From a phage, in the sequence record PZ452598.1: a DNA stretch of 64,000 nucleotides, one strand, 5' to 3'. Both the position numbers and the translations under genes were made by a program. Of this stretch, positions 19,278 to 59,089 are shown in pieces (the first letter of the stretch is position 1; each line of letters begins with the position of its first letter). The notes below the pieces were generated by a model. That model searched no databases, was not told the origin of the DNA, and saw only the letters and a program-made list of their open reading frames with translations.

Positions 19278-20200
19278 TTCAATACCTCAATAGCATTACG
19301 TAAACCATTTGCTTTGGCGGTTAAATCCTTAAGAACTTTAGTATGCTCTTCAATCTGTTTTTCAACTTCAATCAAACGGGTACTGAGATATTCGCGTTCT
19401 TCTTTCATAGTATCATTCCCATGATTGGGCTTTGGCGTAGGTTTAAATTTATTAGGGTCCTTTAACTTAATAACAACTTTAGTTTCAAACAGTGAAAGAC
19501 CATAATTCGTATTATCATCAAAGGATTCAACTACGTCCATTTTAGACAATAACGTACGAAGATTATAAGTCAAAGAACGAATCGTTTTATTATGTTTATT
19601 AGCTTCACATGGTTTCATATATGGAAGATTTTTATATATTTCATGCGGAGCACAAACAATAATTAACAATTCAAATGGTCCATTCTGTGATGATGGAATG
19701 AATTTAGCCGTAACCCAATCTTTTACATTTACATTAATAGTACGATCATCGCCATGACAAAACAGTCTACGAGAATGCTTAAAAAGCATATTCACATTAT
19801 TATTAAATTCGTGTGAAAACTCACTGGCAAATTTTTCTTTACTATCTTTAGAAAACCATTCTTCTAAATAAGTTCTTTTCACGTCGTTAATAATATTAAA
19901 TGTAACAACATTATCATTTGATACATTAGTCTCAATGTAGCTTGGATACATAAATTTTTTAACATTATTAACAGCTATCACAGAAGATAGTAATCGGGAA
20001 CGTTTGAACCACTCGAGCAAAGAACCAAGAGAATGTGAATACGCATTTTGTGTATCTTTACAAATATGGTTTTCCCATCCAATATAGTCTAAAAAATCAC
20101 GAAGAATATTATTGATTACTTCTCTATGTCCTTTCTGATAATCACGATGTTTAGTAATAAGACTGTCAAAATAATCAATATAATGTTTACGAGTTTTCAT
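19274..20200 (-). CDS. paralog-family protein A (308 aa), C-terminal coiled coil
   Basis: shares motif pattern (L..LL.KMDVV) and coiled-coil tail with three neighbouring ORFs. Confidence 0.55.
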   Translation of the reverse strand: MKTRKHYIDYFDSLITKHRDYQKGHREVINNILRDFLDYIGWENHICKDTQNAYSHSLGSLLEWFKRSRLLSSVIAVNNVKKFMYPSYIETNVSNDNVVTFNIINDVKRTYLEEWFSKDSKEKFASEFSHEFNNNVNMLFKHSRRLFCHGDDRTINVNVKDWVTAKFIPSSQNGPFELLIIVCAPHEIYKNLPYMKPCEANKHNKTIRSLTYNLRTLLSKMDVVESFDDNTNYGLSLFETKVVIKLKDPNKFKPTPKPNHGNDTMKEEREYLSTRLIEVEKQIEEHTKVLKDLTAKANGLRNAIEVLK

Positions 20201-24227: not shown

Positions 24228-24253
24228 TTTGTGTTCCTCCGTAGTTGATAGTT

Positions 24254-24287
24254 GTATAGTACCACAGCTCAAACGGAAAGTAAACCG
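24254..24287 (-). promoter_or_regulatory. early promoter GTTTAC-N18-TACTAT with conserved leader CAACTATCAACTAC
   Basis: plus 24280-24285 gtaaac, 24256-24261 atagta. Confidence 0.5.
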
Positions 24288-25267: not shown

Positions 25268-25849
25268 CTAACCGAGCTTTTTAGTTAATTCATTCCAATG
25301 TTTTCTACACAAAGAAACATAAATTTCATCACCAATACAAATTTGATTACCTTCTTTAACTGGTGTTCCATCTTCCATTAATCGAGCTGTCATAATCGCT
25401 TTTTTACCACAATGACAAACTGCTTTTAGTTCAATAAGTTTATCTGCAATCGCTAAAAGTTCTTTAGAACCTTCAAATAATTTTCCAGCGAAATCAGTCC
25501 TTAGCCCATAAGCCATAACAGGAACATTATATGTATCAACAATTCGGCTCAATTGATGCACCTGTTCAGTTTTTAAAAACTGAGCTTCATCTACAAATAC
25601 GCAATGAATATCTTTTTGTGCTTCAGCCCATTTATAGAACTCGAAAATATCCATATCATCTGTAATAATATTCGCTTCCTGCTTAATTCCAATGCGAGAA
25701 ACGACTTCACAGACAGAATCGCGAGTATCAATAGCAGGCTTAAGAACTAATACACTCATTCCACGTTCTTTATAATTATGTGCAGCAGTCAAAAGAGAAG
25801 CAGATTTTCCAGCATTCATTGCTGCATAAGTAAAAATTAAACTCGCCAT
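25268..25849 (-). CDS. tk: thymidine kinase (193 aa)
   Basis: P-loop NAGKSAS, zinc ribbon CHCGKKA...C..H typical of TK1-family kinases. Confidence 0.9.
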   Translation of the reverse strand: MASLIFTYAAMNAGKSASLLTAAHNYKERGMSVLVLKPAIDTRDSVCEVVSRIGIKQEANIITDDMDIFEFYKWAEAQKDIHCVFVDEAQFLKTEQVHQLSRIVDTYNVPVMAYGLRTDFAGKLFEGSKELLAIADKLIELKAVCHCGKKAIMTARLMEDGTPVKEGNQICIGDEIYVSLCRKHWNELTKKLG

Positions 25850-25850
25850 C

Positions 25851-26039
25851 TTAGTCCTTAGTTAAATTTTCTAAATATGTTTCTAAATCATTTTCAGCTT
25901 TATCGATAGATTTTACTAATTCGTAATATGTTTCGGCATCTCCATATTCAGAAGATATTTCAAAAGACAAATCCTTTTCTAAACTAATAATTTCACCAAC
26001 TAAAAATAATATTTCGTTCTTTTGTTCGCGAGTAATCAT
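25851..26039 (-). CDS. small acidic protein (62 aa), paralog of next ORF
   Basis: REQKNEILFLVGEI... aligns with KEQKDTLFSLIHEV... of 26036-26227. Confidence 0.5.
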   Translation of the reverse strand: MITREQKNEILFLVGEIISLEKDLSFEISSEYGDAETYYELVKSIDKAENDLETYLENLTKD

Positions 26040-26227
26040 AAGGAATTTATATAATCAATGAGTTCTTGTTCTTTATTATCGAATTCTTTAGAAAGTTCTT
26101 CGTACTCGTTTGCGCTAAAAGGACCGCATTCATTACAAACTTTTTCCAATTCACTATTTTTATCCATAACTTCGTGGATAAGAGAAAAGAGTGTGTCTTT
26201 TTGTTCTTTGCTTAAACTCATAACCAT
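26036..26227 (-). CDS. small acidic protein (63 aa), paralog of previous ORF
   Basis: tandem duplicate. Confidence 0.5.
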   Translation of the reverse strand: MVMSLSKEQKDTLFSLIHEVMDKNSELEKVCNECGPFSANEYEELSKEFDNKEQELIDYINSL

Positions 26228-26445
26228 GTCACCTTTAAGCAGTATTCTTCTACATGCTGTTTACGACCTTTCTTATCAATAAAGGTATATTCAACGAATG
26301 TTCCAATGTAGTCTTTATCTACATCATGTGGACTATTAATTGGACATTTAGTGCGACAAATGCGTTCCCATTGACGAATAATTACTGCCTTATTCTTTGG
26401 GTCATATGGATGTGGATAATGTATATTCATAATAATGGTTCCCAA
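26218..26445 (-). CDS. hypothetical protein (75 aa)
   Basis: ORF. Confidence 0.45.
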   Translation of the reverse strand: MGTIIMNIHYPHPYDPKNKAVIIRQWERICRTKCPINSPHDVDKDYIGTFVEYTFIDKKGRKQHVEEYCLKVTWL

Positions 26446-26894
26446 TCAACAATCACAATTTCTAATTTAGAGGAATATGTATCTAAAATCCCCTCAATAA
26501 TATCCCAGTTCCCTTTACCTATGCCTGCACCAATCCTAGGCATATAGATTGTAGGTTTAATCAGTTTATTTTCACCAAACTCATTTAATTCTAACATACA
26601 ATTCATTAAAGCGGAATACTCAAAATTTGGCCCTGGTTGAAATTGAGTATAAAGATTGAAGCAGTAAGCTTTATGAGTCCTAAAGTATTTTTCATAGACT
26701 GAGTAAGAACCGAGTTTAGTTACATCACCCCATTCAGTCTGTAATTTATCAGCTTCCAAAATTTTAGGGAAAGCTTTGGTTAATTGACCCGCTACGCCTG
26801 AACCCATAGTATGAAAACAATTACATCCATGTGCAATATTTTTACCTTCAGCGAAAAGGGCGACAATATCGCCCTTGATATATTTTACAATCAT
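26427..26894 (-). CDS. macro-domain-like protein (155 aa)
   Basis: N-terminal IVKYIKGDI...AHGCNCFHTMGSGVAGQL resembles macro-domain ADP-ribose-binding glycine-rich loop. Confidence 0.45.
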   Translation of the reverse strand: MIVKYIKGDIVALFAEGKNIAHGCNCFHTMGSGVAGQLTKAFPKILEADKLQTEWGDVTKLGSYSVYEKYFRTHKAYCFNLYTQFQPGPNFEYSALMNCMLELNEFGENKLIKPTIYMPRIGAGIGKGNWDIIEGILDTYSSKLEIVIVDWEPLL

Positions 26895-27238
26895 CTAGTA
26901 CTCAATCCTCGATTATAAGAATCTACCAAACGGTCAACCATTGAATGACAAGCGGCTTTATCTTTCTCCTCCGCAACTGAACATTCTAAGGTATTCCACT
27001 TTTTAGCATATCGTTTTAACAATGTATCGTTTTTGTATCTGCTTGATTTATCTCTTTCTCCGTCTTTATATGCATATATTAATTTCTGTGCAAATTCAGC
27101 TTGGCATGCCTTATTTTTCCCACAATAATCTGCCGCAGTGCGGTTTACATATTCTCTAATTTCAGTATATGATGTATCTGCTGACGCAGAAGCAGAAAAT
27201 GAAATTAATCCTATACATAAAACCAAAATTTTAGTCAT
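26891..27238 (-). CDS. secreted small protein with signal peptide (115 aa; positional vs)
   Basis: signal peptide MTKILVLCIGLISFSASASA; four Cys. Confidence 0.45.
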   Translation of the reverse strand: MTKILVLCIGLISFSASASADTSYTEIREYVNRTAADYCGKNKACQAEFAQKLIYAYKDGERDKSSRYKNDTLLKRYAKKWNTLECSVAEEKDKAACHSMVDRLVDSYNRGLSTR

Positions 27239-28270: not shown

Positions 28271-28305
28271 AAATTATACCACAGTCAAGAGGAAAAGTAA
28301 ACAGT
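28271..28305 (-). promoter_or_regulatory. early promoter GTTTAC-N18-TATAAT upstream of regB
   Basis: plus 28298-28303 gtaaac, 28273-28278 attata with TGTGG extended -10. Confidence 0.55.
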
Positions 28306-53582: not shown

Positions 53583-55390
53583 TGAAACAAAATATTAATA
53601 TCGGTAATGTTGTAGATGATGGTACCGGTGACTACCTGCGTAAAGGTGGTATAAAAATAAATGAAAACTTTGATGAGCTTTATTATGAACTCGGTGATGG
53701 TGATGTTCCATATTCAGCCGGTGCCTGGAAAACTTATAATGCTTCATCAGGACAAACATTAACAGCAGAATGGGGAAAATCATACGCTATTAATACATCT
53801 TCTGGAAGAGTGACTATAAATCTTCCAAAGGGTACAGTTAATGATTACAACAAGGTAATTAGAGCTAGAGACGTATTTGCTACATGGAACGTCAACCCAG
53901 TTACACTAGTAGCTGCTTCCGGCGATACGATTAAAGGGTCTGCAGTACCAGTTGAAATTAATGTTCAATTCAGCGATTTAGAACTAGTGTATTGTGCCCC
54001 AGGACGTTGGGAATATGTCAAAAATAAACAAATTGACAAAATTACCAGTTCAGACATTAGTAATGTAGCTCGCAAAGAATTTTTAGTTGAAGTTAAAGGA
54101 CAAACAGACTTTTTAGATGTTTTCCGTGGAACTAGTTATAATGTAAATAACATCAGAGTAAAACATCGTGGTAACGAATTGTATTACGGCGATGTGTTTA
54201 GCGAAAACAGCGATTTTGGCTCTCCAGGCGAAAATGAAGGAGAACTGGTTCCTCTTGATGGATTTAACATTCGATTAAGACAGCCTTGTAATATTGGTGA
54301 CACTGTTCAAATTGAAACATTTATGGATGGTGTATCACAGTGGAGAAGTTCATATACAAGACGTCAAATTAGATTGTTAGATTCAAAATTAACGTCAAAA
54401 ACTTCTTTAGAAGGAAGCATTTACGTTACTGATTTATCAACAATGAAATCAATTCCATTTTCTGCTTTTGGATTAATTCCAGGAGAACCTATTAATCCTA
54501 ACTCTCTTGAGGTTCGTTTTAACGGGATTTTACAGGAATTGGCTGGCACAGTTGGAATGCCATTATTTCATTGTGTTGGTGCCGATTCAGACGATGAAGT
54601 AGAATGCTCTGTTTTAGGTGGAACTTGGGAACAATCTCATACCGATTATTCAGTTGAAACTGATGAAAACGGCATACCAGAAATTTTACATTTCGATAGA
54701 GTATTTGAGCATGGTGACATTATCAATATCACCTGGTTTAATAATGATTTGGGTACATTATTAACAAAAGATGAGATTATTGATGAAACTGATAATCTCT
54801 ATGTATCGCAAGGACCTGGAGTAGATATTTCTGGTGATGTAAATTTAACAGACTTCGATAAAATTGGTTGGCCAAATGTAGAAGCAGTTCAATCTTATCA
54901 ACGCGAATTTAATGCTGTTTCAAATATCTTTGATACGATTTATCCTATTGGAACTATATATGAAAACGCTGTTAATCCAAATAACCCTGTTACATATATG
55001 GGATTCGGCTCATGGAAATTATTTGGGCAAGGAAAAGTTTTAGTTGGATGGAATGAAGATATTTCGGACCCTAACTTTGCTCTAAATAACAACGATTTAG
55101 ATTCGGGTGGAAATCCTTCACATACCGCAGGTGGAACAGGTGGTTCTACTTCTGTTACATTGGAAAATGCTAATCTTCCTGCAACTGAAACAGATGAAGA
55201 AGTTCTAATAGTTGATGAAAATGGATCAGTCATTGTTGGTGGGTGTCAATACGATCCAGATGAATCCGGTCCAATTTACACTAAATACCGTGAAGCTAAA
55301 GCATCTACTAACTCTACTCACACTCCGCCAACATCAATAACTAACATTCAACCATATATTACAGTTTATCGTTGGATAAGGATTGCATAA
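53582..55390 (+). CDS. 10: baseplate wedge protein gp10 (602 aa)
   Basis: size and order. Confidence 0.9.
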
Positions 55391-56049
55391 TGAGTTTACT
55401 TAATAATAAAGCGGGAGTTATTTCCCGCTTAGCCGATTTTCTTGGTTTTAGACCTAAAACTGGCGACATTGATGTAATGAATCGTCAATCAGTCGGGTCA
55501 GTGACAATATCTCAATTAGCGAAAGGATTTTATGAACCAAACATAGAATCAGCTATTAATGACGTTCATAATTTTTCTATAAAAGACGTTGGCACAATTA
55601 TTACTAATAAAACTGGTGTTTCTCCTGAGGGTGTTTCTCAAACTGATTATTGGGCATTTTCTGGAACTGTAACAGACGATTCTCTTCCTCCGGGTTCTCC
55701 TATTACGGTATTAGTATTTGGTCTTCCAGTTTCAGCAACAACTGGAATGACGGCAATTGAGTTTGTTGCAAAAGTTCGCGTTGCACTACAAGAAGCTATT
55801 GCGTCATTTACTGCTATCAATTCATATAAAGACCATCCAACTGATGGTAGTAAATTAGAAGTTACTTATTTAGATAATCAAAAACATGTATTAAGCACAT
55901 ATTCTACATATGGAATAACTATTTCCCAAGAAATTATATCTGAGTCTAAGCCTGGCTATGGTACATGGAATTTATTGGGCGCACAAACTGTAACTTTAGA
56001 TAATCAGCAGACTCCTACAGTATTTTATCATTTTGAGAGAACAGCATGA
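55390..56049 (+). CDS. 11: baseplate wedge protein gp11 (219 aa from [10 protein letters not shown])
   Basis: TAATG stop/start overlap with gene 10; track start is an upstream extension. Confidence 0.85.
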
Positions 56050-57629
56050 GTAATAATACATATCAACACGTTTCTAATGAATCTCGTTATGTAAAATTTG
56101 ATCCTACCGATACGAATTTTCCACCGGAGATTACTGATGTTCAGGCTGCTATAGCAGCCATTTCTCCTGCTGGAGTAAATGGAGTTCCTGATGCATCGTC
56201 AACAACAAAGGGAATTCTATTTCTTGCCACTGAACAGGAAGTTATAGATGGAACTAATAATACCAAAGCAGTTACACCAGCAACGTTGGCAACAAGATTA
56301 TCTTATCCAAATGCAACTGAAACTGTTTACGGATTAACAAGATATTCAACCAATGATGAAGCCATTGCCGGAGTTAATAATGAATCTTCTATAACTCCAG
56401 CTAAATTTACTGTCGCCCTTAATAATGCGTTTGAAACGCGAGTTTCAACTGAATCCTCAAATGGTGTTATTAAAATTTCATCTCTACCGCAAGCATTAGC
56501 TGGTGCAGATGATACTACTGCAATGACTCCATTAAAAACACAGCAGTTAGCTATTAAATTAATTGCGCAAATTGCTCCTTCTGAAACCACAGCTACCGAA
56601 TCGGACCAAGGTGTTGTTCAATTAGCAACAGTAGCGCAGGTTCGTCAGGGAACTTTAAGAGAAGGCTATGCAATTTCTCCTTATACGTTTATGAATTCAT
56701 CTGCTACTGAAGAATATAAAGGCGTAATTAAATTAGGAACACAATCAGAAGTTAACTCGAATAATGCTTCTGTTGCGGTTACTGGCGCAACTCTTAATGG
56801 TCGTGGTTCTACGACGTCAATGAGAGGCGTAGTTAAATTAACTACAACCGCCGGTTCACAGAGTGGAGGCGATGCTTCATCAGCCTTAGCTTGGAATGCT
56901 GACGTTATCCACCAAAGAGGTGGTCAAATTATCTATGGAACACTCCGCATTGAAGACACATTTACAATAGCTAATGGTGGAGCAAATATTACGGGTACCG
57001 TCAGAATGACTGGCGGTTATATTCAAGGTAACCGCATCGTAACACAAAATGAAATTGATAGAACTATTCCTGTCGGAGCTATTATGATGTGGGCCGCTGA
57101 TAGTCTTCCTAGTGATGCTTGGCGCTTCTGCCATGGTGGAACTGTTTCAGCGTCAGATTGTCCATTATATGCTTCTAGAATTGGAACAAGATATGGCGGA
57201 AACCCATCAAATCCTGGATTGCCTGACATGCGTGGTCTTTTTGTTCGTGGTTCTGGTCGTGGTTCTCACTTAACAAATCCAAATGTTAATGGTAATGACC
57301 AATTTGGTAAACCTAGATTAGGTGTAGGTTGTACCGGTGGATATGTTGGTGAAGTACAGAAACAACAGATGTCTTATCATAAACATGCTGGCGGATTTGG
57401 TGAGCATGATGATTCTGGGGCATTCGGTAATACCCGTAGATCAAATTTTGTTGGTACACGTAAAGGACTTGACTGGGATAACCGTTCATACTTCACCAAT
57501 GACGGATATGAAATTGACCCAGAATCACAACGAAATTCCAAATATACATTAAATCGTCCTGAATTAATTGGAAATGAAACACGTCCATGGAACATTTCTT
57601 TAAACTACATAATTAAGGTAAAAGAATGA
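56046..57629 (+). CDS. 12: short tail fibre protein gp12 (527 aa)
   Basis: size and order; Gly/Thr/Ser-rich fibre sequence. Confidence 0.9.
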
Positions 57630-59089
57630 CAGATATTGTACTGAATGACTTACCATTCGTTGACGGCCCTCCTGCAGAGGGCCAGAGCCGCATTTCCTGG
57701 ATTAAAAACGGCGAAGAAATATTAGGAGCTGACACACAGTATGGAAGTGAAGGCTCAATGAATAGACCTACGGTTTCTGTACTAAGAAATGTTGAAGTTC
57801 TTGATAAAAACATTGGAATACTTAAAACATCTTTAGAAACCGCAAATAGTGATATTAAAACAATTCAGGGCATCTTAGATGTATCTGGTGATATTGAAGC
57901 TTTGGCCCAAATAGGTATCAATAAAAAGGATATTTCTGACCTCAAAACGCTAACCAGTGAACACACAGAAATATTAAATGGAACTAATAATACGGTTGAC
58001 AGTATTCTTGCCGATATTGGTCCATTTAACGCCGAGGCCAACTCTGTATACAGAACGATCAGAAATGATTTACTGTGGATAAAGCGTGAACTTGGACAAT
58101 ACACTGGTCAAGATATTAATGGTCTTCCTGTTGTAGGAAATCCTAGTAGTGGAATGAAGCATCGCATTATTAATAATACTGATGTCATCACTTCGCAGGG
58201 AATACGTTTAAGCGAATTAGAAACAAAATTTATTGAATCTGATGTAGGTTCTTTGACCATTGAAGTTGGTAATCTTCGTGAAGAGCTTGGACCGAAACCA
58301 CCATCATTTTCACAGAACGTTTATAGTCGTTTAAATGAAATTGACACTAAACAGACAACAGTTGAGTCTGACATTAGTGCTATTAAGACCTCAATAGGAT
58401 ATCCAGGAAATAATTCGATTATCACGAGTGTTAATACAAACACTGATAATATTGCATCTATTAATTTAGAGCTAAATCAAAGTGGAGGTATTAAACAGCG
58501 TTTAACCGTTATTGAAACTTCCATTGGTTCAGATGATATTCCTTCGAGTATTAAAGGTCAAATCAAAGATAATACAACTTCAATCGAATCTCTAAATGGA
58601 ATCGTCGGTGAAAACACTTCATCTGGCTTAAGAGCGAATGTTTCATGGTTAAACCAAATTGTTGGAACTGATTCTAGCGGTGGACAACCTTCTCCTCCTG
58701 GGTCTCTTTTAAACCGAGTTTCTACAATTGAAACTTCTGTTTCAGGCTTGAATAACGATGTTCAAAACCTACAAGTAGAGATTGGTAATAACAGCACAGG
58801 AATTAAAGGGCAAGTTGTAGCGTTAAATACTTTAGTAAATGGAACTAATCCAAACGGTTCAACTGTTGAAGAGCGCGGATTAACCAATTCAATAAAAGCT
58901 AACGAAACTAACATTGCATCAGTTACACAAGAAGTGAATACAGCTAAAGGCAATATATCTTCTTTACAAGGTGATGTTCAAGCTCTCCAAGAAGCCGGTT
59001 ATATTCCTGAAGCTCCAAGAGATGGGCAAGCTTACGTTCGTAAAGATGGCGAATGGGTATTGCTTTCTACCTTTTTATCACCAGCATAA
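57626..59089 (+). CDS. wac: fibritin (whisker antigen control, 487 aa)
   Basis: long segmented coiled coil; C-terminal foldon [27 protein letters not shown]. Confidence 0.95.

What the first reader, a model, noticed from the sequence alone, without database searches (positions are those of the whole stretch)
25851..26227. Tandem duplicated pair of 62-63 aa acidic helical proteins downstream of tk
ORFs 25851-26039 and 26036-26227 align along their length (ITREQKNEILFLVGEI...EYGDAETYYELVKS versus LSKEQKDTLFSLIHEV...EYEELSKEF) and overlap by 4 nt. Small acidic helical proteins are a common form for DNA mimics and other protein-binding inhibitors; a duplicated diverged pair suggests two related targets.
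Basis: seen in the sequence. Interest (0 to 1): 0.45.

Follow-up and report, generated by a model that had tools for sequence, protein, structure and literature searches.

The report
Phage T4 genes tk.1 and tk.2
The two small ORFs are the long-annotated phage T4 genes tk.1 and tk.2: real, expressed, dispensable paralogues of a small acidic two-helix protein family (Pfam DUF7438) whose function remains unknown.

Summary
The window is phage T4 (100% identity). The ORFs are tk.1 (25851-26039, minus strand) and tk.2 (26036-26221, minus strand, 61 aa from the better-placed start). They lie upstream of tk in the direction of transcription, not downstream.

The paralogy is real. Smith-Waterman z is 8.8, with 0 of 5000 shuffles reaching the score. 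Both proteins match Pfam DUF7438 and PHROG 653 end to end. This is already recorded publicly: PHROG 653 also holds T4 mobD.3 and mobD.4.

Both are acidic (net charge about -10) and are predicted with confidence as alpha-helical hairpins. They are under purifying selection (dN/dS 0.10-0.24). Published data show early transcription, detection by proteomics, and dispensability in a transposon screen and a knock-down screen. The transposon screen reports no phenotype against five defence systems, in minimal medium or on one clinical isolate.

The family is confined to T4-like phages of enterobacteria. Copy number varies from one to two at this locus, and the T4-type pair travels as one unit in 169 phage records.

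No homology or fold match reveals a function. My best guess is that these are dimer-forming protein binders acting as redundant host or defence modulators. That is an inference. The DNA-mimic idea is neither supported nor excluded.

Verdict: already known genes and family, low novelty.

The parts
25851..26039 (-). tk.1 CDS (62 aa), a DUF7438 / PHROG 653 member. It is an acidic alpha-helical hairpin.
   Evidence: ORF. T4 annotation. Pfam 55.6 bits. AlphaFold2 pLDDT 93.8, H4-29/H35-60. dN/dS 0.15-0.24.
26036..26221 (-). tk.2 CDS (61 aa from the annotated ATG at 26221), a DUF7438 / PHROG 653 member. An in-frame ATG at 26227 would give 63 aa.
   Evidence: Pfam 65.2 bits. AlphaFold2 pLDDT 85.4, H5-32/H37-60. 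dN/dS 0.10-0.34.
26036..26039 (-). ATGA overlap between the tk.2 stop and the tk.1 start, consistent with translational coupling.
   Evidence: Read directly from the sequence.
26218..26221 (-). ATGA overlap between the tk.3 stop and the tk.2 start.
   Evidence: Read directly from the sequence. T4 annotation.
25851..25862 (-). Last codons of tk.1 (ACT AAG GAC TAA). They contain the AAGGA Shine-Dalgarno of tk, whose ATG follows one base after the tk.1 stop.
   Evidence: Sequence. A ribosome-binding site for tk is annotated in X04567.
25268..25849 (-). tk, thymidine kinase. It is the next gene downstream in the transcript.
26218..26430 (-). tk.3 (70 aa, DUF7202), the gene immediately upstream.
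26427..26894 (-). tk.4, a macrodomain protein. A 2025 preprint reports it as AdfM, an anti-DarTG2 factor.
   Evidence: Pfam Macro match. Preprint 10.1101/2025.11.20.689424.
28273..28301 (-). Early-promoter-like site (TTTACT, 17-nt spacer, TG-extended TATAAT) upstream of regB. It is the likely start of the regB-to-tk early transcript. No terminator-like site was found on the minus strand between it and tk.
   Evidence: This is a consensus match only.

Best explanation
**Shown.**
- These are the phage T4 genes tk.1 and tk.2, two ancient, diverged tandem paralogues of the DUF7438 / PHROG 653 family.
- Each encodes a roughly 60-aa, strongly acidic alpha-helical hairpin.
- They are co-transcribed early, within a chain of overlapping genes running from regB to tk.
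- Both proteins are made in infected cells.
- Both genes are under purifying selection.
- Both are dispensable for growth on laboratory E. coli.
- The family is restricted to T4-like phages of enterobacteria. It occurs in one to two copies at this locus, with more copies in the nearby mobD cluster.

**Inferred.**
- The conserved residues form the scaffold: a helix N-cap (T/S-x-E-Q) and the a/d core.
- Extra conserved hydrophobic positions sit at the open end of the hairpin (tk.1 L11, L13, I18, L56). A lone hairpin could not bury them.
- Each protein therefore most likely pairs with a second hairpin into a four-helix bundle.
- It would then act stoichiometrically by binding a host or defence protein through its variable acidic surface and loop.
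- Paralogues would cover different or overlapping targets, and this redundancy would hide single-gene phenotypes.
For: **Identity**
- 100% identity to T4 and to its annotation.
- Annotated as ORF 59.7 and ORF 59.9 in the 1986 record X04567.

**Paralogy**
-.
- The CRISPRi-ART supplement lists tk.1, tk.2, mobD.3 and mobD.4 in PHROG 653.
- My own profile finds mobD.3, mobD.4 and mobD.2a as the only other members in the whole T4 genome.

**Fold**
- Helical hairpins.

**Real and expressed**
- dN/dS is 0.10-0.24 against orthologues with dS of 0.35-2.6.
- Early RNA and a detected protein are reported for both (PMC9697503 supplement).

**Dispensable**
- HIDEN-SEQ hit 20 of 22 insertion sites in tk.1 and 15 of 16 in tk.2, classed 'Non-essential'.
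- CRISPRi-ART classes both as 'Not Fit'.

**Narrow family**
- 11 hits at E <= 1e-3 among 1.84 billion representative proteins.
- 126 clusters, almost all 50-76 aa. Every hit that carries a source name comes from a T4-like enterobacterial phage or an E. coli/Shigella record, and most unnamed hits sit on contigs of 165-173 kb.

**Scaffold versus surface conservation**
- Column statistics.

**Accessory, anti-defence-rich context**
- tk.4 = AdfM.
- Gene content between tk.4 and tk varies across genera.

**Charge**
- Net negative charge is kept in all paralogues, from -4 to -10.
Against: - No target is known and no interaction was computed. The tools fold single chains only, so dimerisation is inferred from sequence periodicity alone.
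- HIDEN-SEQ's main text names other genes, not tk.1 or tk.2, as the hits for RexAB, RnlAB, CBASS, DarTG1, DarTG2 and M9 medium.
- I read only two of the supplement's comparison tables: the comparison of two independent libraries, and K-12 versus UPEC isolate CFE299. Both genes have q = 1 in each. The per-system rows were not read.
- Purifying selection among orthologues does not look like an ongoing arms race within each lineage.
Confidence: 0.45

Rival explanations
1. Tk.1 and Tk.2 are an obligate heterodimer. Two tandemly encoded, translationally coupled hairpins would assemble into one four-helix bundle, as ESAT-6/CFP-10 do, and act as a single unit.
For: - ATGA coupling between the two genes.
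- Same fold and length.
- The contiguous T4-type pair is present in exactly 169 phage records. That equals the number of records with a T4-type tk.2 and with a T4-type tk.1.
- Reference T4 has a second tandem set, mobD.4-mobD.3.
Against: - Either type occurs alone at this locus in other genera. A tk.2 type alone is found in PP01, IME08 and WFL6982 and in about 573 records. A tk.1 type without a tk.2 type is found in Moonvirus KM16. Gelderlandvirus STP4-a has a tk.1 type plus a different 57-aa paralogue.
- A metagenomic contig carries a single tk.2N-tk.1C hybrid in place of the pair.
- There is no WXG motif.
- No co-folding could be run.
Confidence: 0.15
2. They are DNA mimics in the manner of Ocr or Arn. 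Their carboxylates would imitate a DNA backbone and block a host DNA-binding enzyme such as a restriction or repair nuclease.
For: - Net charge is about -10 over 61-62 residues, with pI 4.2-4.3.
- Expression is early.
- The genes are dispensable on laboratory hosts.
- From general knowledge, T4 already encodes one small acidic mimic, Arn.
Against: - Only three acidic columns are conserved at 80% or more across the family (tk.1 E5, E16, D23).
- The paralogue mobD.3 carries only -4.
- There is no sequence or structural similarity to any solved mimic.
- No phenotype appeared in the screens, although none of those tested restriction systems that T4 is not otherwise protected from.
Confidence: 0.12
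3. The proteins have little or no trans-acting role. The ORFs would persist mainly as translationally coupled spacers that deliver ribosomes to tk and carry its ribosome-binding site.
For: - The Shine-Dalgarno of tk lies inside the last codons of tk.1, and the genes form an unbroken chain of overlaps.
- No phenotype in any published screen.
Against: - dN/dS of 0.10-0.24 shows that the amino-acid sequence itself is constrained.
- The hairpin heptad pattern and N-cap are conserved across paralogues that sit in different loci, not next to tk.
- Both proteins are detected by mass spectrometry.
- Several genera keep tk directly after a single copy.
Confidence: 0.1
4. They are Rop-like nucleic-acid-binding regulators, acting as a hairpin dimer that binds RNA or DNA.
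For: Rop variants are among the closest hairpin matches in Foldseek, with TM about 0.55-0.7, but at E > 1.
Against: - The matches are not significant and the fold is generic.
- The proteins are strongly acidic and have few basic residues (6 K+R against 15-16 D+E). That is unfavourable for binding nucleic acid.
Confidence: 0.04

Closest known systems
Pfam DUF7438 (PF24219) / PHROG 653, including T4 MobD.3 and MobD.4
   Same: Full-length profile matches, the same length, the same predicted hairpin, an acidic character, and the same phage group and early accessory regions.
   Different: Nothing distinguishes them: tk.1 and tk.2 are members. The family itself has no known function.
ESAT-6/CFP-10 (WXG100) tandem hairpin heterodimers
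   Same: Two adjacent, co-translated genes encode helical hairpins of similar size. These proteins appear among the weak structural neighbours.
   Different: The sequences are unrelated and the loop has no WXG motif. The proteins are shorter (about 60 aa against about 95 aa) and are cytoplasmic phage early proteins. Partners are not obligately co-inherited across genera.
Rop/Rom of ColE1
   Same: A hairpin of about 60 aa with heptad periodicity. Rop dimerises into a four-helix bundle, which is the assembly I infer here.
   Different: There is no significant sequence or structure score (E > 1). Rop binds RNA, whereas these proteins are far more acidic.
Small acidic phage inhibitors and DNA mimics (T7 Ocr, T4 Arn, T7 Gp5.9). 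The comparison with these named proteins rests on general knowledge only.
   Same: Small size, strongly negative charge, early expression and non-essentiality on laboratory hosts.
   Different: No homology or fold match. No conserved array of acidic positions. No known target.
Tsi2, the acidic hairpin-dimer immunity protein of a type VI secretion toxin
   Same: An acidic helical hairpin that dimerises and neutralises a protein by binding it. It is a weak Foldseek neighbour (rank 3, E = 1.0).
   Different: The match is not significant. The biological context is different and there is no adjacent toxin gene.

Membership tests
Pfam DUF7438 (PF24219) / PHROG 653 | Whole-protein HMM score above the curated gathering threshold, covering the full model. 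| tested here: met
   tk.1 scores 55.6 bits (model positions 1-57 of 57) and tk.2 scores 65.2 bits (1-57 of 57), against a cut-off of 25. PHROG 653 E-values are 1.7e-22 and 4.1e-24.
Pfam DUF7438 (PF24219) / PHROG 653 | A single-domain protein of about 57-67 aa built from two long helices. | tested here: met
   AlphaFold2 hairpins with pLDDT 85 and 94. Nearly all family hits are 50-76 aa, apart from a few fragments and one 112-aa read-through.
Pfam DUF7438 (PF24219) / PHROG 653 | Encoded in early accessory regions of T4-like (Tevenvirinae) phages. | tested here: met
   Loci in Tequatrovirus, Mosigvirus, Dhakavirus, Gaprivervirus, Gelderlandvirus and Moonvirus.
DNA-mimic proteins (Ocr, Arn and similar) | High density of negative charge. 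| tested here: met
   Net charge -10.5 and -9.4, pI 4.2 and 4.3.
DNA-mimic proteins (Ocr, Arn and similar) | A conserved surface array of carboxylates matching DNA phosphate spacing. | tested here: inconclusive
   Only 3 columns are at least 80% acidic across 20 family members. The geometry could not be analysed because model coordinates and the oligomeric state are unavailable.
DNA-mimic proteins (Ocr, Arn and similar) | Binds and inhibits a DNA-binding protein. | not testable with these tools
   This needs pull-downs or co-folding against candidate targets.
DNA-mimic proteins (Ocr, Arn and similar) | Sequence or fold relationship to a characterised mimic. | tested here: not met
WXG100 (ESAT-6/CFP-10) heterodimeric hairpin pairs | A W-x-G motif in the hairpin loop. 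| tested here: not met
   The loops read EYGDAE in tk.1 and ECGPFS in tk.2.
WXG100 (ESAT-6/CFP-10) heterodimeric hairpin pairs | The two partners are obligately co-encoded. | tested here: not met
   Single-copy loci in PP01, IME08, WFL6982 and KM16. About 573 records have a tk.2 type without a tk.1 type.
Phage anti-defence proteins (a functional class) | The gene becomes conditionally required when a cognate defence system is present. | tested here: not met
   This comes from published data, not my own experiment. HIDEN-SEQ's text reports other genes as the hits for RexAB, RnlAB, CBASS, DarTG1, DarTG2 and M9 medium. The table for UPEC isolate CFE299 gives q = 1 for tk.1 and tk.2. I did not read the per-system tables. 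Only these conditions were tested, and paralogue redundancy could hide an effect.

The most novel reading that the evidence does not exclude
The DUF7438 hairpins (tk.1, tk.2, mobD.2a, mobD.3, mobD.4) would be a modular, redundant family of stoichiometric inhibitors of host defence or host nucleic-acid enzymes. The open-end hydrophobic patch would drive homo- or heterodimerisation, and the variable acidic surface would set the target. Single knock-outs would be silent because paralogues back each other up. The deletion variant in this window already lacks the mobD copies, so it would be a sensitised background in which loss of tk.1 and tk.2 reveals the phenotype.
Probability: 0.3. Interest if true: 0.55.

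Novelty: already known. Interest (0 to 1): 0.2.

Why it matters
T4 is the best-studied large lytic phage, yet about half of its genes have no known function. tk.1 and tk.2 belong to one of its few multi-copy families of small orphan proteins. They sit next to tk.4, which a 2025 preprint reports as an anti-defence gene.

Assigning a target to this family would explain four or five T4 genes at once. It would also add a very small protein scaffold to the known set of phage inhibitors.

As matters stand, the finding rediscovers annotated genes and a paralogy that Pfam and PHROGs already record. Its immediate value is therefore modest.

Tried and rejected
- **BLASTP of the two proteins.** No alignment. 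I replaced it with Smith-Waterman plus shuffles and with profile searches.
- **PDB sequence searches.** With each protein and with a 20-member family profile, nothing was significant. The best hit, an 'anti-CRISPR protein' (23aa_A), had a full-sequence E of 0.024 but per-domain E-values of 1.5 and 38. I rejected it as chance.
- **NCBIfam.** No family.
- **Other candidate family members.**
  - pseT.1 was rejected. Its profile E was 0.008-0.012 in a small database, it is basic, and its pairwise z is below 4.
  - The 57-aa ORF found in T2 and PP01 between tk.3 and tk.2 was rejected. It has no Pfam hit and its z is about 0.
- **MotA-box search.** The middle-promoter pattern gave no site near the genes.
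- **Literature.** Searches by gene name, DUF number and accession numbers found no functional study.
- **P0108.** This apparent 112-aa two-domain fusion is a read-through of mobD.2a into the next small ORF and is not informative.
- **P0005.** This hybrid comes from UFV-AREG1, but the current record of that genome has separate tk.2 and tk.1 genes. I do not rely on it.

Full report
**What the window is**

A 2.3-kb stretch around the finding is 100% identical to several phage T4 records. The RefSeq annotation places tk at window 25268-25849, tk.1 at 25851-26039, tk.2 at 26036-26221, tk.3 at 26218-26430 and tk.4 at 26427-26894. All are on the minus strand.

The two ORFs were already listed as ORF 59.7 and ORF 59.9 in the 1986 record X04567. 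Because they are on the minus strand, they lie upstream of tk in the transcript.

**The observation**

The 4-nt overlap is an ATGA start/stop overlap at 26036-26039. The same device joins tk.3 to tk.2 at 26218-26221. This favours the annotated 61-aa start of tk.2, which sits about 7 nt after an AAGGTGA Shine-Dalgarno, over the 63-aa ORF start.

The stop codon of tk.1 is followed after one base by the ATG of tk. The AAGGA ribosome-binding site of tk lies in the last codons of tk.1.

Default BLASTP reports no alignment between the two proteins. A BLOSUM62 Smith-Waterman alignment scores 74, against 27 +/- 5 for 5000 composition-preserving shuffles (z = 8.8, none reach it). It runs end to end with about 29% identity.

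Both proteins match Pfam DUF7438 over the whole 57-position model (55.6 and 65.2 bits, cut-off 25). Both also match PHROG 653.

Both are acidic, with pI 4.2 and 4.3 and net charge about -10. AlphaFold2 predicts the same two-helix hairpin for each:
- tk.2: H5-32 and H37-60, pLDDT 85.
- tk.1: H4-29 and H35-60, pLDDT 94.

**They are real, expressed genes**

Against orthologues from other phages, dN/dS is 0.10-0.24 for most comparisons, with dS between 0.35 and 2.6.

The supplement of PMC9697503 lists both genes with early RNA and a protein detected with 'middle' kinetics.

A strong early-promoter-like site lies upstream of regB, at 28301-28273 on the minus strand. No terminator-like site lies on that strand before tk. 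This fits one early transcript covering regB-vs.1-vs-tk.4-tk.3-tk.2-tk.1-tk.

**The family is larger than a pair, and this is already recorded**

Pfam places T4 MobD.3 (4.9e-18) and MobD.4 (5.2e-13) in DUF7438 as well. A published annotation table assigns tk.1, tk.2, mobD.3 and mobD.4 to PHROG 653 (PMC11879866 supplement).

I assembled the reference T4 genome from fetched pieces and scanned all 1262 ORFs of 30 aa or more with my own family profile. The members found are:
- tk.1, tk.2, mobD.3 and mobD.4.
- mobD.2a, which is truncated to 38 aa in T4 but is 57 aa in PP01 and phiD1.

pseT.1 is borderline and was rejected. All members are acidic, from -4 to -10.

The window itself contains only tk.1 and tk.2. 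It carries a 4,820-bp deletion relative to the reference, described under side observations.

**Distribution**

A profile of tk.1 and tk.2 found only 11 proteins at E <= 1e-3 among 1.84 billion representative proteins.

A broader 20-member profile found 126 clusters. Nearly all are 50-76 aa. Every hit with a source name comes from a T4-like enterobacterial phage or an E. coli/Shigella record, and many sit on contigs of about 165-173 kb.

The content between tk.4 and tk varies between phages:

| Phage (genus) | Genes between tk.4 and tk |
|---|---|
| T4 | tk.3, tk.2, tk.1 |
| T2 | tk.3, a zinc-binding ORF, a 57-aa ORF, tk.2, tk.1 |
| PP01 | tk.3, a zinc-binding ORF, a 57-aa ORF, tk.2 type only |
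| IME08 (Dhakavirus) | tk.3, tk.2 type only |
| WFL6982 (Mosigvirus) | tk.2 type only |
| P896 (Gaprivervirus) | tk.3, a zinc-binding ORF, a tk.2-type and tk.1-type pair |
| STP4-a (Gelderlandvirus) | a zinc-binding ORF, a different 57-aa DUF7438 paralogue, tk.1 type |
| KM16 (Moonvirus) | tk.1 type only, followed by a zinc-binding ORF |

The contiguous T4-type pair is present in exactly 169 phage records. That equals the number of records with a T4-type tk.2 and with a T4-type tk.1, at 80% or more amino-acid identity. About 573 records have only a tk.2 variant at 47-56% identity.

An 86-kb metagenomic contig carries one 50-aa hybrid (tk.2 N-terminus joined to tk.1 C-terminus) in place of the pair.

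Within the T4 lineage the two genes therefore travel together. Across genera, either type can stand alone.

**What is conserved**

Across 20 family members the near-invariant or always-hydrophobic columns, in tk.1 numbering, are:
- T3-x-E5-Q6 at the N-cap of helix 1.
- The a/d core: I10, V14, I17, L24, Y38, L41, I45, L52, Y55 and L59.
- Four further hydrophobic positions at the open end of the hairpin: L11, L13, I18 and L56.

The loop has insertions and deletions. Most surface positions vary. Only three columns are at least 80% acidic.

A lone hairpin cannot bury the extra hydrophobic positions. I therefore infer pairing with a second hairpin, or docking onto a partner, at the open end. This is an inference from sequence. 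The tools fold single chains only.

**Search for a function**

Nothing significant appeared in any of these searches:
- PDB by sequence or by profile.
- NCBIfam.
- Foldseek against PDB and viral models.

Literature searches found no functional study.

Two genome-wide screens bear on function. In CRISPRi-ART, knock-down of tk.1, tk.2, mobD.3 or mobD.4 is classed 'Not Fit'.

In HIDEN-SEQ (preprint 10.1101/2025.11.20.689424):
- tk.1 (20 of 22 sites hit) and tk.2 (15 of 16) are classed 'Non-essential'.
- The main text reports other genes as the hits against RexAB, RnlAB, CBASS, DarTG1 and DarTG2 and in M9 medium.
- In the two tables I read, both genes have q = 1. One compares two independent libraries and the other compares K-12 with UPEC isolate CFE299.

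The same preprint identifies the neighbour tk.4 as AdfM, an anti-DarTG2 macrodomain. It also identifies nrdC.1 as an anti-Septu factor. The surrounding early accessory region is therefore rich in counter-defence genes.

**Most likely mechanism and rivals**

My best reading is as follows. These are small dimer-forming hairpins that act stoichiometrically by binding a host or defence protein. Their scaffold is conserved and their acidic surface is variable. Redundancy among four or five paralogues could explain the silent single-gene screens.

I put the identity and paralogy at about 0.98 and this mechanism at about 0.35.

| Rival | Probability | Main evidence for | Main evidence against |
|---|---|---|---|
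| Obligate Tk.1/Tk.2 heterodimer | 0.15 | Coupling and the 169/169 co-inheritance | Single-copy loci in other genera |
| True DNA mimic | 0.12 | Charge | Few conserved acidic positions, no structural relative |
| Mere coupling spacers for tk | 0.10 | Shine-Dalgarno of tk inside tk.1, no phenotype | dN/dS, conservation of paralogues at other loci |
| Rop-like nucleic-acid binder | 0.04 | Weak hairpin resemblance | Strong acidity |

**Novelty**

The genes, their coordinates and their family membership are already in public resources: GenBank since 1986, Pfam DUF7438 and PHROG 653. What remains open is the function of the family. I classify the finding as already known, with low interest.

**Side observations**

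The window is T4 with a 4,820-bp deletion (T4 53,926-58,745, covering nrdC.9 through mobD.5). The deletion lies between two identical 17-bp repeats, GTTGTATAGTACCACAG. On the minus strand these are the TG-extended -10 regions of two early promoters. No record in the phage collection shows this junction.

RefSeq labels the tk.3 product 'Tk.2 ...'. It labels mobD.4 'molybdopterin-guanine dinucleotide biosynthesis protein MobD', which looks like gene-symbol confusion.

Noticed in passing
window 24251-24267: The window is T4 with a 4,820-bp deletion relative to NC_000866.4 (T4 53,926-58,745). The deletion removes nrdC.9, nrdC.10, nrdC.11, mobD and mobD.1 through mobD.5, including the other DUF7438 paralogues. 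The junction lies in a 17-bp sequence, GTTGTATAGTACCACAG, that is present at both ends in the reference. On the minus strand this sequence is the TG-extended -10 region of two early promoters, each with GTTTAC 17 nt upstream. No record in the phage collection covers the junction in one piece.
   Followed up: partly
L002 1719-2101 (T2). Also L004 2122-2504 (PP01) and L009 2088-2473 (phiD1).: T2-type phages carry two extra ORFs between tk.3 and tk.2 that T4 lacks. One is a 70-aa Cys-rich protein matching Pfam Phage_zn_bind (PF23895, E 2.4e-29). The other is a 57-58-aa ORF with no family match and is not related to DUF7438.
   Followed up: partly
window 26427-26894 (-): tk.4 is a macrodomain protein. 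A 2025 preprint (10.1101/2025.11.20.689424) reports it as AdfM, required for T4 to resist the DarTG2 system. The same screen found vs (26891-27238) to be important in minimal medium.
   Followed up: partly
L013 1501-1653 (ENA metagenome contig, 86 kb). Also protein P0005.: Natural hybrid genes join the N-terminal helix of tk.2 to the C-terminal helix of tk.1. In the 86-kb contig the 50-aa hybrid is the only DUF7438 gene between the 57-aa ORF and tk. The 64-aa hybrid P0005 is attributed to UFV-AREG1, but the current genome record has two separate genes, so it may come from an older version or an error.
   Followed up: partly
L001 358-540 and 2719-2931 (NC_000866.4 annotation): There are product-name errors in RefSeq T4. 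tk.3 is labelled 'Tk.2 conserved hypothetical protein'. mobD.4 is labelled 'molybdopterin-guanine dinucleotide biosynthesis protein MobD', apparently from confusion with the bacterial gene symbol mobD. The wrong name has spread to bacterial and phage records.
   Followed up: no
window 25851-25862 (-): The Shine-Dalgarno of tk (AAGGA) lies within the last codons of tk.1 (T-K-D-stop), and the ATG of tk follows one base after the stop. The C-terminal 'TKD' of tk.1 is therefore under dual constraint.
   Followed up: no
window 1-64000 compared with NC_000866.4: Besides the large deletion, the offsets between the window and the T4 reference shift by 1 nt before position 20001. They shift by 9 nt between 30001 and 63901. 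The source is therefore a T4 variant rather than the reference sequence.
   Followed up: no
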